Both the position numbers and the translations under genes were made by a program. DNA of 64,000 bases, from the NCBI GenBank assembly GCA_030390025.1, contig CM059431.1, positions 109,060,001-109,124,000 on the forward strand, read 5' to 3'. Position 1 is the stretch's first letter, and each line of letters opens with the position of its first letter. Below, one piece after another: positions 10,505 through 47,559 of this stretch. A model generated the notes under the pieces. It had not been told where the DNA came from. It saw nothing but the letters and a program-made list of their open reading frames with translations, and did no database searches. This DNA comes from Squalus acanthias (Eukaryota).

Positions 10505-11650
10505 CTCAGGGAACTTGGTAAAGGAGTAGGTCACTGGCCTTTCACCACTATGGGCTAAGTTCAAATCCAGCAGAAATGGAGGACATGAAAGTCTCCTCTA
10601 TCTTCTGGCTGTAAGGCTCCTATTTTAAATTAGCTTTGGCATCTCAGTGCAGTTGCTAGTGAGCATGGACCTACAACACAAGAACTATCCCAGGTTTGTG
10701 CAAATTGGCAACTCATTGGCCCAAAAATTCATCCCGGTGCGCGAGAGTACACACTGCGTACTCTCGCGTATTCCCTCTGCAATTGCCGGTTTTCTGCATG
10801 CCCTGCGCATGCGCTGAAAACCGGCAATTGCTCTTTTGAAAAGGGGGTGGTTCCTCGGTGCATCGCGTGCGCGCTACAGGCTGCGCGCACGCTGTGCACT
10901 TCATGCTTTGGACGCGCAGGTAAGTACTGAAGATTTTAGAAATGTAAAAAGGAGGAGTAAGACCCACTTTTAACAAGGTAAGTAGTGAATTAAGTATTTT
11001 TTTGAATTTTTTTTTACAGGTGTATCTTTTTTAGAGACTTTAAAGACAGGTAAGTTTATTTTTATAACTTTTTAAAAGATTTTAAATTTTTTCAAAAATT
11101 TAATTTTTTATTTAAAATGGTTAATTTATTTAACTATACTTATTTTATTAATGTGATGGTTTGTTTTTTAAATTTAATTGAGGTTTAGCTGTTATTTTGG
11201 GGGGGTGTAAGATTCATAGATTTCACAGCCTGTGCTGTGAAACTTATGAATGGAAGATGGTGTGCTGCCATTGGCTCTAACTGAGTCACGTGATCCCACA
11301 GCTCGCACGAATTCACTACGCCGGTGGGATACGCAAGCACTGCCCGGCTGATGTCTAGAACATCAAGTTCGTGCGAGCTGGATCTGAAAAAGCACAAGCG
11401 AGGTGAGAGATCGCGGGGAAGGCTTACCCCCGCGGGAACAGAGCGAGATCAATTTCTGGGCCATTGTCTATCTCACTCAGTGAGGATAGAAGATGCTTGT
11501 GTGAATGGGTAAAAATGTCATATTGATGCAGTAGAGGTGCTCTTCTAAGATTAGGAGGGAGCAAAAGGAGCTTTACCCTGCAGCTGGCTGTGACTTGGTT
11601 GGTTGATACTCACTTTGGGTGGGTGTTTGAAATTAGAAGAGTTTATTCCC
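10505..11650 (+). mobile_element. LF-SINE-like element split by a MITE
   Basis: 10529-10714 (GCCTTTCACCAC..GTTCAAATCCAGC..TCTCAGTGCAGTTGCTAGTG..AATTGGCA) is colinear with the LF-SINE consensus as I recall it; weaker similarity continues after 11463. Confidence 0.6.
10718..11462. mobile_element. Harbinger-type MITE (related to family B)
   Basis: TIRs GGCCCAAAAATT / AATTTCTGGGCC; exact ATT TSD (10715-10717, 11463-11465). Confidence 0.8.
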
Positions 11651-26639: not shown

Positions 26640-26727
26640 AGTGAGAAGTCGCACAACACCAGGTTATAGTCCAACAGCTTTATTTGAAATCACAAGCTTT
26701 CGGAGCGCTGCTCCTTCGTCAGGTGAA
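26640..26727 (-). mobile_element. Short Penelope-like insertion with hammerhead ribozyme (family H1), 9-bp TSD
   Basis: CTACTCAGA at 26631-26639 and 26728-26736; homologous to 43644-43730. Confidence 0.75.
26690..26726 (-). ncRNA. Minimal type I hammerhead ribozyme
   Basis: Minus strand reads UCAC-CUGACGA-A-GGAGC agc GCUCC-GAA-AGCU-U-GUGA: catalytic core, helix II, palindromic helix III AGCU, helix I UCAC/GUGA. Confidence 0.75.
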
Positions 26728-32957: not shown

Positions 32958-33520
32958 CTGGTTCAGAAGATTGGGAGCTTGAACATCACATCCAGGGCCT
33001 GAGTACACAATCTAGGCTAACACTGTAGTGCGGCACTGAGGGAACGCTGTATTGATGGAGGTGCAATCCTTCAAAAGAGATGTTAAACTGAGGACCTGTC
33101 AGCCATTACTCTGCCCGATGGTGTTGAAAAGGTGTTTGAAGAACAGCAGGGAACCTTCCTGGTGTTTTAGTCAACATTCTTCCCTCAAACAATACCATCG
33201 TAAAAACAGATCAACGGGTCATTCAGCTCATTGCTATGACGATAGCAAAATACTGCGGATGCTGGAAATCCGAAATAACTACAGAAAACGCTGGAAAAAC
33301 TCAGCAGGCCAGGCAGCATCCATGGAGAGAGAAACAGAGTTAACGTTTCAGGCTGAGTTTTTCCAGCGTTTTCTGTTGTTATTTCAGCTCATTGCTATGT
33401 TGTGTGCAGAATGGCTGCTTCATTTGCCTGCATAACAGTTACAACACTTCAAAAGTAATTCATTGTTGAGTACTCAGAAGCATTTAGACACGATAAGGTG
33501 CTTTATGCATGCAAGCATTT
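32958..33520 (+). mobile_element. Degenerate DeuSINE interrupted by a Penelope-like insertion
   Basis: AATCTAGGCTAACACTGTAGTGCGGCACTGAGGGAACGCTG ... CACTTCAAAAGTAATTCATTG. Confidence 0.75.
33239..33382 (-). mobile_element. Penelope-like short insertion (family H2) with inverted segment, 17-bp TSD
   Basis: TTCAGCTCATTGCTATG at 33222-33238 and 33383-33399; inverted repeat 33272-33305 / 33352-33385; homologous to 38317-38397. Confidence 0.8.
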
Positions 33521-37099: not shown

Positions 37100-38295
37100 A
37101 TTATGTTGCACCACTGAGCTCCCTTATCGATAGTTGATATTAAGGATGGCAGGTACATTAGTTAAAGGTGAAATGTATTCTGCAGAGTTGGCACATTTTT
37201 CTAAGCGTAGCCGTAACTAAGAGGCACTCAGGAGATGCAACTGCCTACCTAATGTGATCCTGCACTGCTGCTGAACACTTCATTCAGTCTTACACATTTG
37301 TTGCAACAGGGATCTCTGGAGATGCTCTTCCTGTTGAAATCTATGATCTTTTCCTTTTGACTTGGTTTTGCCAAGAGTCCATGCTGGTGCTTGCGTGGTT
37401 ATGAAAAGGCATAGCTCAGTGCGGCAAAGGGAACGCAAGAAAATGAGCACCCCATTGATGTCCTGAAGCAAATACTTCCTCAACTTTTTGACAGGTAACT
37501 AAATGTAAATGTTTAGAAACAATTAGTTAGTCTCAAAATGCCTTTGTTCATTTTAGTAATAGAGGGGACTGAGAGAATTGGATGCTGCTGGGAAAACTTT
37601 GAAGGTGAAATCCTTGTTTTGAGAAATTTGGCAAAAAATCTTATTTTCTAAACTTGCCAATTGTCTCTCATAAAATTATTAACAGGAGGGATTATATCCC
37701 CCCTCCCCACCCCTTAACATCCAATTTCCCTGGTGTGACATTATGGGGCTGCATTTGCTCATCTGTAACTCGGGCAAATAGGAAGGAAAATCAAACAGGG
37801 AAACAATCCGTTGGCCTCCTGCCACTCAATACCATTTCCAAGATTTTCCACCAGAAATGGCTCCAAGTGCATAATACGGCCACTCAAATAGGGCCGGGCA
37901 TATTATATTGAGATGTAAATGATGGAATAAGATCATTCAATGTATTTCCTGTCATTTGCAGCTTAGCAACGCAGGGCACTAAGAACATGGTGTGTTCTTG
38001 TCATGGAGTGTTGCTACAGGCTACATATTTATGGGCCACTTTTTCCTGGTCAAAGTGGCAAATTCAAAATGCAACCTAAAAATTAGATTTCAGATCTTCT
38101 TTCAAAAATAGGTTCACCATTAATGTCCTTTTGCTGTGGGTCATGATAACTTCATCATTATTTTATTTTTCAAGTCAATTTCTATTTATTGTAAAAGTTG
38201 AATATTTGCATCAACACTGAATACTGATGAAATTAAGAGGGGTCACTGACAGTGTGAAAGCACTCCATTAATATAAGCAGAGAAGTCATTGTCCT

Positions 38296-38330
38296 GTTCT
38301 GACGAAGGGTCATCGACCTGAAACGTTAAC
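38296..38330 (+). ncRNA. Minimal type I hammerhead ribozyme
   Basis: GUU-CUGACGA-A-GGGUC auc GACCU-GAA-ACGU-U-AAC: core, helix II, palindromic helix III ACGU, helix I GUU/AAC. Confidence 0.75.
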
Positions 38331-38397
38331 TCTGTTTCTCTCTCTACAGATGCTGCCTGACCTGCTGAGTATTTCCAGCATTTTTCTGTTTTTATTT
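38296..38397 (+). mobile_element. Short Penelope-like insertion with hammerhead ribozyme (family H2), 13-bp TSD
   Basis: AAGTCATTGTCCT at 38283-38295 and 38398-38410. Confidence 0.8.
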
Positions 38398-39469
38398 AAG
38401 TCATTGTCCTTGGTGCTTTACCAAACTTATAATTTTAACGAAGAATTTCGTGTAACACTTCAATTGTAAGGGAGAGGTTGATTGTGAAACACACTTTATG
38501 TGTTGACAATCTCTGCCTAATCAACAACAGATATGAACACAAAGCAGTCCCAAATCAAATCCAGTCCCACTCCCTAAACTCCAGAATGGCCCAGGAATAG
38601 AACTGGAGAACAGTCCCTAGAGATAGGTGCATTGCTGTGGTATCGCAGCACAAGCCAAACATTGCGATGACTATACATCATATTTCACTTGGGAATGCTT
38701 GGCTTGGTCATTTATGCAAAGTGGCAAAAAATTGCTACTGTTTATACAATGAGGTGTGAACAGTAAAATAATATTCTATCGTTTTTTGTTTCCATATTAA
38801 AAAAATTATAATAATCTATAGTACATTCAAAGCTTAGATTATAAAAATCTATAGTACATCCACTCTTCAATGCAGTGAAGTTTCAATTATCTTGTGATTT
38901 AATACGGCACACCCATGATGTTAATCTTGAAAGCATTCACAATCTGAATTACATTTAATTGTGATGAACTCTAAAGCCCACTAAATGAATTGGACTCCAA
39001 GGATTGTGAGAAGTTTCTAAGCAGACTTCGTATTTCTATTCGCAAAGCTTTTATTAGTTTACATGTACATGCAGAATTAGACTCTGTAGATATCCATTTA
39101 TATTAAAACTGCAGAAATAACAGAGCGTTTGCAGATCACCAGTAGCGGTGATCGAGAGCTTTAGATGCGACTGGGCCTCATTATCCTCCAAAGGGTGCTA
39201 TGGCATAGTGGGTTATTGCACCCACCCTTACACATCAACAGAAAGCGTATCTGGAGTGGTTGTGATTTTTGAATATAAAAATTCCTCCCGGCAGTCATGT
39301 TCAGTGGTGGATGTACTGCTCCAAGATAGGCGTGACCAATGAAGTACTTTCTGTTCTTACCCAGTCATGCAAAATAAGTAGACATTCGAAAAAAAAATCA
39401 TAATTTTTTTCCCCCCCCCCACCCCCCCCCCCCCCCCCAAGTTAACATTGGAAATAATTGCTTGCAATC

Positions 39470-43603: not shown

Positions 43604-43732
43604 ATGATGCGGAGATGCCGGTGTTGGACTGGGGTGGACAAAAATGAGAAGTCGCACAACACCAGGTTATAGTCCAACAGTTTTATTTAAAATTACGAGC
43701 TTTCGGAGCTGTTGCCCCTTCATCAGGTAAAG
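43604..43732 (-). mobile_element. Penelope-like terminal repeat with hammerhead (family H1)
   Basis: Homologous to 26640-26727, extended to GATGCGGAGATGCCGGTGTTGGACTGGGG. Confidence 0.75.
43693..43730 (-). ncRNA. Minimal type I hammerhead ribozyme
   Basis: UUAC-CUGAUGA-A-GGGGC aaca GCUCC-GAA-AGCU-C-GUAA; helix I UUAC/GUAA. Confidence 0.75.
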
Positions 43733-47303: not shown

Positions 47304-47559
47304 TTCAATGATTTGTCTCTCCAACTGCATATTAAACAAAAACAGAAAATGCTGGAAGTGACCACCAGGTTAGACAGTATCTGGATGGCTCTCTTTTGTC
47401 TATTTTAAAGTTAATCTATTCTTCTCCCCCTCCCCACCACCCACCGCCCACCGCCCCCCACCCCGAGCCGACAGTGACCATTCCCACTAACTCTCCTGCA
47501 TTTGTTTCACAGGAGATCCAGATTTCACGCCTGCCCATTTGAGTTAAAGAGAGAAAAAA

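What the first reader, a model, noticed from the sequence alone, without database searches (positions are those of the whole stretch)
38283..38410. 102-bp hammerhead-ribozyme mini-retroelement with a perfect 13-bp TSD
Seen: AAGTCATTGTCCT flanks a 102-bp insert whose first 35 nt fold as a complete minimal type I hammerhead (GUU-CUGACGA-A-GGGUC/GACCU-GAA-ACGU-U-AAC). The insert starts exactly at the 5' arm of helix I. Known: Penelope-like elements carry minimal type I hammerheads with palindromic helix III that are proposed to work as dimers. Inference: this is a non-autonomous, self-cleaving mini-element (retrozyme-like) mobilised by a Penelope-type RT/endonuclease in a shark genome.
Basis: partly seen in the sequence, partly recalled or inferred. 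Interest (0 to 1): 0.8.

Follow-up and report, generated by a model that had tools for sequence, protein, structure and literature searches.

The report
Truncated Penelope retroelement end with hammerhead
This 102-base insert is the end-piece of a very abundant Penelope-like jumping gene and carries that element's small hammerhead ribozyme motif; it is likely a dead-end by-product of copying, and this kind of sequence is already known.

Summary
A 102-bp insert (38296-38397) lies between perfect 13-bp duplications. Its first 35 nt match the minimal type I hammerhead of Penelope-like elements (PLEs).

It is not a separate mini-element. In longer copies the same sequence continues upstream into a 3' UTR and an RT + GIY-YIG ORF. 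In full-length copies two hammerheads lie 3199 bp apart, and the 1004-aa open frame reads through the motif. The insert is therefore the hammerhead plus the first codons of the PLE ORF, ending at the inner of two 3' ends. The outer end adds the 34-bp PLE "tail".

In 1.06 Mb of arbitrarily chosen genome, 14 of 64 copies (15 with the window's own copy) start within -3..+4 nt of the hammerhead's first base. One starts at the predicted cleavage site. A second, sequence-unrelated hammerhead family behaves the same way (10 of 20).

So the templates were uncut, and the template RNA likely begins at the motif's front edge. A TATA-like box about 30 nt upstream fits this; the start site is inferred and untested.

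No tandem arrays were seen, so it is not retrozyme-like. This is a known kind of sequence, and the scan has reported it before, on other DNA and in this genome.

The parts
38283..38295 (.). Left copy of the 13-bp target-site duplication AAGTCATTGTCCT
38296..38397 (+). 102-bp tail-less terminal copy of a Penelope-like element (family 1). It holds the hammerhead motif plus the first codons of the element's ORF and ends at the inner 3' end (...TTTTTATTT).
   Evidence: The genome holds copies 96-100% identical. In longer copies the same stretch follows the GIY-YIG ORF and its 3' UTR.
38296..38330 (+). Minimal type I hammerhead motif.
- Helix I: 38296-98 with 38328-30.
- Core CUGACGA: 38299-38305.
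- Extra A: 38306.
- Helix II: 38307-11 with 38315-19.
- GAA: 38320-22.
- Palindrome ACGU: 38323-26.
- U17: 38327.
- Predicted cut: 38327|38328.
   Evidence: Sequence. Pair counts. Features of PLE min-hammerheads from PMC4209133. No Rfam hit. Cleavage was not tested.
38350..38397 (+). In-frame ATG (38350-52) and 16 codons of the PLE ORF start. The frame is open across the whole insert. In intact copies it also contains an ATG inside the CUGAUGA core; in this copy that codon reads ACG.
   Evidence: the 1004-aa open frames of L077, L078 and L080 read through the hammerhead..
38398..38410 (.). Right copy of the 13-bp target-site duplication

Best explanation
The 102-bp insert is a target-site-duplicated, tail-less copy of the terminal module of an autonomous Penelope-like element: a minimal hammerhead motif plus the first codons of the RT-GIY-YIG ORF. 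[quoted passage not shown]

Shown by calls or sequence:
- the insert and its duplication;
- its identity with the end of RT/GIY-YIG elements;
- the two alternative 3' ends;
- the head-to-head partner copies;
- the clustering of 5' ends at helix I;
- the near absence of 5' ends at the cut site.

Inferred:
- The clustered 5' end is the RNA's own 5' end, most simply a transcription start set by a TATA-like box about 30 nt upstream.
- The short copy arises because RT starts at the first start site, only 102 or 136 nt from that end.
- The copy cannot move again. It lacks the upstream promoter-like stretch. By analogy with the Anolis element PAc, it would also lack the RNA segment beyond the RT start site that the protein needs.
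- The hammerhead is a passenger in this copy. Its template was not cut.
For: **Same sequence as the end of an autonomous element**
- The 102 bp have genome copies at 96-100% identity: 45 matches, with 40 of 450 candidates scored.
- Most of these copies run on upstream, and many run on downstream by the same 34 bp.
- In L031 the stretch lies about 220 bp after an ORF with a GIY-YIG hit.
- L044, L045 and L077 ORFs have RVT_1 followed by GIY-YIG.
- The GIY-YIG part has 89,440 first-look candidates. All 150 scored have E<=3.1e-115.

**Full-length copies**
- L077, L078 and L080 have two hammerheads 3199 bp apart, and a 1004-aa open frame reads through the motif.
- 15 of 150 scored N-terminal matches have 1004-aa open frames.

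**PLE hallmarks as listed in PMC8557442**
- Partial tandems.
- Adjacent inverted 5'-truncated copies. One example, L087, is a head-to-head pair inside a 10-bp duplication.
- An optional 30-40 bp tail. Of 64 arms, 27 end at 97-108, 32 end at 132-141 and 5 end in between.
- PMC11167929 shows for PAc two internal RT start sites that explain the tail, an ORF that begins in the hammerhead, extension of both DNA strands, and insertion from uncut RNA.

**5' ends in unselected DNA**
- The sample was 100 arbitrarily chosen 10-kb stretches plus the window, 1.064 Mb in all.
- 14 of 64 family-1 arms have a BLAST 5' boundary at -3..+4 of helix I. The count is 15 with the window's own arm, which BLAST over-extends to -6.
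- The next fullest 8-nt bin holds 6 arms. The binomial P is about 5e-11.
- One arm (L128) starts at the cut site.
- Family 2, which has different helices, gives 10 of 20 arms at -2..+2.

**Promoter-like stretch**
- 6 of 7 unselected family-1 copies that run on upstream have a TATA-like hexamer 19-36 nt before the A that precedes helix I.
Against: - Both Pfam hits are below the curated cut-offs: RVT_1 17-27 bits against 29.6, and GIY-YIG 19-21 bits against 22.6.
- No RNA data bear on the 5' end.
- None of the 7 arms that continue from the hammerhead into the ORF starts at helix I. They start at -17 to beyond -299. That is not what a single start site at helix I predicts for full-length run-off copies.
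- There is a minor second cluster at -16..-18.
- In family 2 the TATA-like box lies farther upstream, about 35-44 nt.
- In Drosophila virilis Penelope the promoter is described as TATA-less. Its start site lies 46 nt before a 75-nt intron, and the intron's end abuts helix I (PMC2377424; PMC4209133).
- 5' boundaries were read from BLAST ends and by eye, so they are good to about 3 nt.
Confidence: 0.75

Rival explanations
1. Same by-product of the Penelope-like element, but the clustered 5' end is not the end of the RNA. The reverse transcriptase stops or switches template once it has copied the folded or protein-bound hammerhead, or the two cDNAs of an insertion are joined there.
For: - Head-to-head pairs join at or within a few nt of helix I, with small untemplated or repeated pieces (L090, L096, L177, L019, L087).
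- ORF-containing copies begin upstream of helix I, so RNAs that extend upstream exist.
- There is a minor cluster at -17.
Against: - A roadblock should stall RT before it enters a structure, at the 3' side, not just after leaving it.
- Two families with different helix sequences stop at the same relative place.
- A TATA-like box lies at a fitting distance in family 1.
Confidence: 0.17
2. One reading: an independent, non-autonomous, self-cleaving mini-retroelement (retrozyme-like) that propagates as a 102-bp unit and borrows a Penelope RT.
For: - There is a discrete size class from helix I to the 3' end.
- A 2026 preprint proposes that animal non-LTR retrozymes derive from PLE pLTRs (10.64898/2026.07.22.740005; abstract, Results part 1 and Discussion read).
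Against: - The unit is an uninterrupted part of the autonomous element, and part of it is coding.
- No head-to-tail arrays were seen around the insert or among the arms listed.
- The unit lacks the upstream TATA-like stretch.
- Copies that start at helix I are as close to the long copies as to each other, at 96-100% identity.
- The template was not cut at the ribozyme site.
Confidence: 0.06
3. Plain random 5' truncation of a retroelement copy, with a start at helix I by coincidence and a hammerhead-like word by chance.
For: Many other truncation points exist, from -129 to +102. Rfam does not call a hammerhead.
Against: - The 5'-end bin at helix I holds 14 of 64 arms against at most 6 in any other bin.
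- The pattern is repeated in family 2.
- The core is invariant and the helices co-vary between families.
Confidence: 0.02

Closest known systems
Minimal hammerheads (min-HHR) in the pseudo-LTRs of metazoan Penelope-like elements (Cervera and De la Pena 2014, PMC4209133; parts 1-2 of the text read)
   Same: - Type I topology.
- Short helix I.
- An unpaired base between A9 and 10.1.
- A palindromic 15.2-16.2 with no loop 3, so an expected dimeric helix III.
- Very numerous solo motifs, ascribed to truncated PLEs.
- Some pairs lie close together on opposite strands.
   Different: - Helix II here is 5 bp, against 6-8 bp in the schistosome and Drosophila virilis examples the paper describes.
- The first pair of helix II is G.U or A-U in family 1, not the G10.1-C11.1 the paper calls highly conserved. 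Family 2 has G-C.
- That paper does not treat cartilaginous fish in the parts I read.
PAc, a Poseidon-type PLE of Anolis carolinensis (Frangieh et al. 2024, PMC11167929; main text read)
   Same: - The hammerhead lies at the pLTR-ORF junction and the ORF begins inside it.
- Two adjacent internal RT start sites give copies with or without a 30-40 bp tail.
- Both target strands are cut and extended, which fits the head-to-head pairs.
- Uncut RNA is the main template.
   Different: - RT start sites lie 111-118 nt into the PAc ORF. Here the two ends lie 96 and 130 nt after the core ATG.
- The shark ORF has a CX4CX2C stretch before GIY-YIG. PMC8557442 ascribes such a stretch to the Neptune and Nematis clades; my clade assignment is inference.
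- Nothing here was tested biochemically.
Penelope of Drosophila virilis (Schostak et al. 2008, PMC2377424, passages read)
   Same: Transcription starts inside the pLTR, upstream of the ORF.
   Different: - In the fly the promoter is described as TATA-less.
- In the fly the start site is 46 nt before a 75-nt intron that ends at helix I.
- In the shark families the inferred RNA start abuts helix I directly. Family 2 has no AG there, so no intron needs to be invoked.
Animal non-LTR retrozymes (PMC7229834, abstract only; Li, Clavereau and Pollet 2026 preprint)
   Same: Small type I hammerhead-bearing sequences related to PLE pLTRs.
   Different: Retrozymes are head-to-tail arrays of non-coding units that give circular RNAs. 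This insert is single, partly coding, and continuous with the autonomous element.

Membership tests
Hammerhead ribozyme, minimal type I form of Penelope-like elements | Conserved core CUGANGA ... GAA ... A15.1/U16.1 and H17, in type I order | tested here: met
   Sequence 38299-38327. Columns C, U, G, A, G, A, A and G, A, A are invariant in 41 distinct variants of two families.
Hammerhead ribozyme, minimal type I form of Penelope-like elements | Helices I and II are base-paired and kept by compensatory change | tested here: met
   90.0% of cells are paired against 81.4% in shuffles (0 of 500 reach it). 7 of 11 pairs change on both sides. Most of this signal is the contrast between two families, so it reflects few independent events. 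9 family-2 variants with a 4-nt loop were left out of A2 because MAFFT shifted them.
Hammerhead ribozyme, minimal type I form of Penelope-like elements | Extra base between A9 and 10.1, and a palindromic 15.2-16.2 without loop 3 (PMC4209133) | tested here: met
   A at 38306; ACGU at 38323-26. Family 2 has AGCU.
Hammerhead ribozyme, minimal type I form of Penelope-like elements | G10.1-C11.1 pair | tested here: not met
   This copy has G.U. Across the alignment the pair is GU in 17 rows, AU in 16 and GC in 6. It is still a standard pair.
Hammerhead ribozyme, minimal type I form of Penelope-like elements | Match to a curated hammerhead covariance model | tested here: not met
   No Rfam hammerhead hit at gathering score or at E<=10. 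That the Rfam models expect a helix III is my recollection, not a result of any call.
Hammerhead ribozyme, minimal type I form of Penelope-like elements | Self-cleavage after H17 | not testable with these tools
   Genomic 5' ends give no sign of it: 1 of 64 arms starts at the cut site. The monomer prefers a competing fold.
Penelope-like element (endonuclease-bearing) insertion unit | A single ORF with RT followed by a C-terminal GIY-YIG, linked to the same end sequence | tested here: met
   Both Pfam hits are below the curated cut-offs, but they recur in the same order in L044, L045 and L077.
Penelope-like element (endonuclease-bearing) insertion unit | Pseudo-LTRs from partial tandems, and inverted 5'-truncated partner copies | tested here: met
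   two hammerheads 3199 bp apart, an upstream partial ORF, and the head-to-head pair in L078.
Penelope-like element (endonuclease-bearing) insertion unit | Optional 30-40 bp tail at the end of the unit | tested here: met
   The tail is 34 bp. Of 64 arms, 27 are tail-less, 32 are tailed and 5 end in between. The window's copy is tail-less.
Non-LTR retrozyme | Head-to-tail arrays of hammerhead-bearing, non-coding units | tested here: not met
   No tandem repeat in 37800-38900. The neighbouring arms seen are head-to-head, not head-to-tail. The unit is partly coding.
Non-LTR retrozyme | Circular RNA of unit length | not testable with these tools
   No raw RNA reads were on offer.

The most novel reading that the evidence does not exclude
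In shark Penelope-like elements the hammerhead is the very first structure of the transcript. A TATA-like core promoter in the pLTR starts the RNA at the first base of helix I. The very abundant 100-136-bp hammerhead inserts are run-off cDNAs from the promoter-proximal RT start site, made on one or both cut DNA ends. The ribozyme would then serve as a 5' leader switch that can remove the cap and the core AUG from the coding RNA, rather than as a unit-length processing site.
Probability: 0.3. Interest if true: 0.5.

Novelty: new member of a known kind. Interest (0 to 1): 0.25.

Why it matters
On its own the insert is ordinary. It is one of a very large number of dead-end end-pieces of a Penelope-like element, of a kind described since 2014.

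Its value lies in the record these copies keep of the element's copying mechanism. They show two RT start sites, extension from both DNA ends, and templates that were not cut by the ribozyme. That is what was found in vitro for a lizard element.

The 5' ends pile up at the front edge of the hammerhead in two unrelated families. This gives a testable guess at where the template RNA begins, and it is indirect evidence about the still unclear role of hammerheads in these elements.

For annotation, such inserts should be masked as Penelope-like element fragments. They should not be called new ribozyme genes or a new class of SINE.

Tried and rejected
**RNA-family and fold checks**
- Rfam at gathering score on the whole window and at E<=10 on 301 bp gave no hammerhead and no other self-cleaving family. 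The three hits, with E 0.6-6.6, are chance.
- My first spacing pattern for the motif was wrong and found nothing. The corrected one finds the site once.
- The dimer energy could not be scored, because the dimeric hammerhead is crossed in a two-strand dot-bracket string.

**RNA evidence**
- No RNA holder is listed. All 24 runs are Logan contigs, and "RNA?" is a guess.
- Contigs of X1, X5, X6 and X13 and of X1, X6, X19 and X20 cover the stretch in runs labelled with six different organism codes.
- Summed contig depth rises about 2-3 fold across helix I in X19 and X20, and about 6-14 fold in X1 and X6. The tool states that contig depth cannot rank parts of a stretch, so I draw nothing from it.
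- Table 6 of both calls lists no places where molecules begin or end.

**Alignment**
- The 50-row alignment A1 was shifted by one column between the families and was not used. A2 (41 rows) drops the 9 family-2 variants with a 4-nt loop.

**Ideas considered and rejected**
- A splice acceptor at helix I (family 1 has a pyrimidine run followed by AG there): rejected as a general cause, because family 2 has no AG.
- An HDV-like or other ribozyme cutting at its own 5' end: no Rfam support.

**Literature**
- Lunse, Weinberg and Breaker (RNA Biol, PMC5785218) is not held. I saw it only in a reference list.
- Literature searches made.
- In the papers and passages I read, I found no statement that short PLE copies start at the front edge of the hammerhead. 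I cannot say that it is not in print.
- I did not open the supplements of the PLE papers. They may hold relevant tables.

Full report
**Observation**

One search shows AAGTCATTGTCCT at 38283-38295 and again at 38398-38410, around a 102-bp insert (38296-38397). The 13-mer occurs only at these two places in the window. Shuffles give a mean of 0.10 matches.

The first 35 nt of the insert read as follows:
- GUU, then CUGACGA, then an extra A.
- A 5-bp helix II (GGGUC/GACCU, first pair G.U) with a 3-nt loop.
- GAA, the palindrome ACGU, U, and AAC.

The predicted cut falls between 38327 and 38328. Three caveats apply:
- Rfam calls no hammerhead, either at gathering score or at E<=10.
- Helix I has only 3 bp in this copy.
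- The monomer's lowest-energy fold is a competing hairpin that pairs part of the core, at -9.1 against -5.2 kcal/mol.

**What the insert belongs to**

The window lies in a 3.7-Gb genome (G000, contig C7). The 102 bp have copies at 96-100% identity: 45 matches, with only 40 of 450 candidates scored.

When oriented with their flanks, most copies continue upstream with the same sequence. Many also continue downstream by the same 34 bp. The 102 bp are therefore a piece of something longer.
- In L031 the stretch lies about 220 bp after an ORF with a GIY-YIG hit.
- ORFs of 621-971 aa in L044, L045 and L077 carry RVT_1 followed by GIY-YIG. Both hits are below Pfam's curated cut-offs, but they recur in the same order.
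- A CX4CX2C stretch precedes GIY-YIG. The introduction of PMC8557442 ascribes such a linker to the Neptune and Nematis clades. My clade assignment is inference.
- The GIY-YIG part has 89,440 first-look candidates in the genome, and all 150 scored have E<=3.1e-115.
- 15 of 150 scored N-terminal matches lie in 1004-aa open frames.

**Full-length architecture**

In L077, L078 and L080 two hammerheads lie 3199 bp apart, and the 1004-aa open frame reads through the upstream one. The core of these copies reads CUG-AUG-A, with the AUG in frame. A second in-frame ATG corresponds to 38350-38352 of the window.

The insert is thus the hammerhead plus the first 16-32 codons of the element's ORF. In the window's copy the core codon is ACG.

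This is the layout reported for the Anolis element PAc (PMC11167929):
- The ORF begins in the hammerhead.
- Reverse transcription starts internally at two adjacent sites.
- The stretch between the two sites is the optional 30-40-bp tail.
- Both target strands are cut and extended.
- Uncut RNA is the main template.

The shark family shows the genomic counterparts:
- Of 64 arms in unselected DNA, 27 end at 97-108, 32 end at 132-141 and 5 end in between.
- Head-to-head pairs with tails pointing outward are common. One of them, L087, lies inside a single 10-bp duplication.
- Partial tandems, inverted 5'-truncated partners, tails and hammerheads in pLTRs are the hallmarks listed for these elements in PMC8557442.

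**Is the hammerhead real?**

A second family in the same genome has the same plan with different helices. Helix I is UAC/GUA or CAC/GUG, helix II is GGAGC/GCUCC, and the palindrome is AGCU. It also has its own optional 3' extensions.

On 41 distinct 37-nt variants of both families the core columns are invariant. The pair counts are:
- 90.0% of pair cells are standard pairs, against 81.4% in shuffles. None of 500 shuffles reaches the observed value.
- At most 48% are paired when partners are slid.
- 7 of 11 pairs change on both sides.

Most of that signal is the contrast between two families, so it rests on few independent events. Nine family-2 variants with a 4-nt loop were left out.

The extra base after A9 and the palindromic 15.2-16.2 are the traits named for min-hammerheads of these elements in PMC4209133. 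The G10.1-C11.1 pair named there is G.U or A-U in family 1.

Contigs of runs labelled with six different organism codes (four per call) cover the stretch. Their common variants in the motif fall at N7, at 10.1 (G or A, both of which pair), in loop 2 and at 1.1 (A or G, both of which pair). Cleavage itself was not tested.

**Where copies begin**

After a first look at loci chosen by their 3' 60 bp, I took an unselected sample. It comprised 100 stretches of 10 kb at fixed coordinates on contigs C1-C20, plus the window, 1.064 Mb in all.

For family 1:
- 64 arms reach the 3' end region.
- 9 run on upstream to the limit of the queries.
- 14 have their BLAST 5' boundary within -3..+4 of the first base of helix I. 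The count is 15 with the window's own arm, which BLAST extends by chance to -6.
- No other 8-nt bin holds more than 6 arms.
- Under an even spread the binomial P is about 5e-11.
- Only one arm (L128) begins at the predicted cleavage product.

For family 2, 10 of 20 arms begin at -2..+2. Two of these are short copies in this window.

The templates of these copies were not cut by the ribozyme.

**Mechanism, and what is inferred**

The simplest reading is that the template RNA itself begins at helix I. RT that starts at the nearest internal start site, 102 or 136 nt away, then runs off the RNA's end. When this happens on both cut DNA ends, the result is a head-to-head pair.

A start of transcription there fits a TATA-like hexamer 19-36 nt upstream, seen in 6 of 7 unselected extended copies. 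It also fits an initiator-like CCAGTTC at the junction.

This step is inferred, and several observations weigh against it:
- None of the 7 arms that continue into the ORF starts at helix I.
- There is a small second cluster at -16..-18.
- The family-2 box lies farther upstream.
- The fly Penelope promoter is described as TATA-less, with its start site 46 nt before an intron that ends at helix I (PMC2377424; PMC4209133).

An RT stop or template switch at the edge of the folded motif remains possible.

The short copy lacks the upstream promoter-like stretch. By analogy with PAc, where RNA beyond the RT start site is required, it would also lack part of the protein's binding site. I therefore regard it as dead on arrival.

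**Comparison and verdict**

This is a truncated end of an endonuclease-bearing Penelope-like element with its minimal hammerhead, a kind described in 2014.

It is not retrozyme-like:
- There are no head-to-tail arrays.
- The unit is partly coding.
- The unit is continuous with the autonomous element.

Earlier notes of this scan, on other genomes and 12 Mb away in this genome, reached the same reading, including the clustered 5' boundary. I saw them only after forming mine, and I tested the claims here.

Interest is low. The one modestly new point is the 5' cluster as a pointer to the start of the template RNA, and that needs RNA 5'-end mapping.

Noticed in passing
window 26640-26727 (-) and about 43605-43731 (-): Two short copies of a second hammerhead-bearing family, with helix I CAC/GUG or UAC/GUA, helix II GGAGC/GCUCC and the palindrome AGCU. 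The first has a 9-bp duplication TCTGAGTAG. The second has a longer 3' extension. Both start 2 nt before helix I.
   Followed up: partly
L037, L139, L162, L178 (family 2 long form): Longer family-2 copies carry a hairpin of about 270 bp upstream of a TATA-like box, and three alternative 3' ends. I saw no RT/GIY-YIG ORF next to them in the DNA held. This family, rather than the reported insert, might be a true non-autonomous passenger of Penelope-like elements.
   Followed up: no
window 33239-33382 (-): A second family-1 copy between 17-bp duplications CATAGCAATGAGCTGAA (33383-33399 and 33222-33238). It runs from position 22 of the unit to the tailed end, preceded by an inverted piece of the unit's 3' part. 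An old fragment also lies at 47334-47383 (-).
   Followed up: partly
window 10717-11461 (-); L008, L148, L055: A MITE-like repeat of about 745 bp with terminal inverted repeats is frequent in the genome. In at least three Penelope tails it sits inside the hammerhead's GTTAAC, at the TTA. This is either repeated insertion at that site or a subfamily that carried it along. A Harbinger-type DDE_Tnp_4 ORF lies in L031:953-2107.
   Followed up: partly
L031:4366-6022 (-): An unrelated LINE-type reverse transcriptase ORF (RVT_1, E 7.9e-16) lies next to the Penelope copy.
   Followed up: no
window 38295-38331: The lowest-energy monomer fold pairs UGACG of the core with CGUUA around the cut site (-9.1 kcal/mol). 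This would hold the motif inactive. It fits the low or protein-assisted activity reported for such motifs.
   Followed up: partly
L092, L099, L127, L147: There is a minor cluster of 5' ends at -16 to -18 from helix I. One of these copies (L147) continues into the ORF.
   Followed up: no
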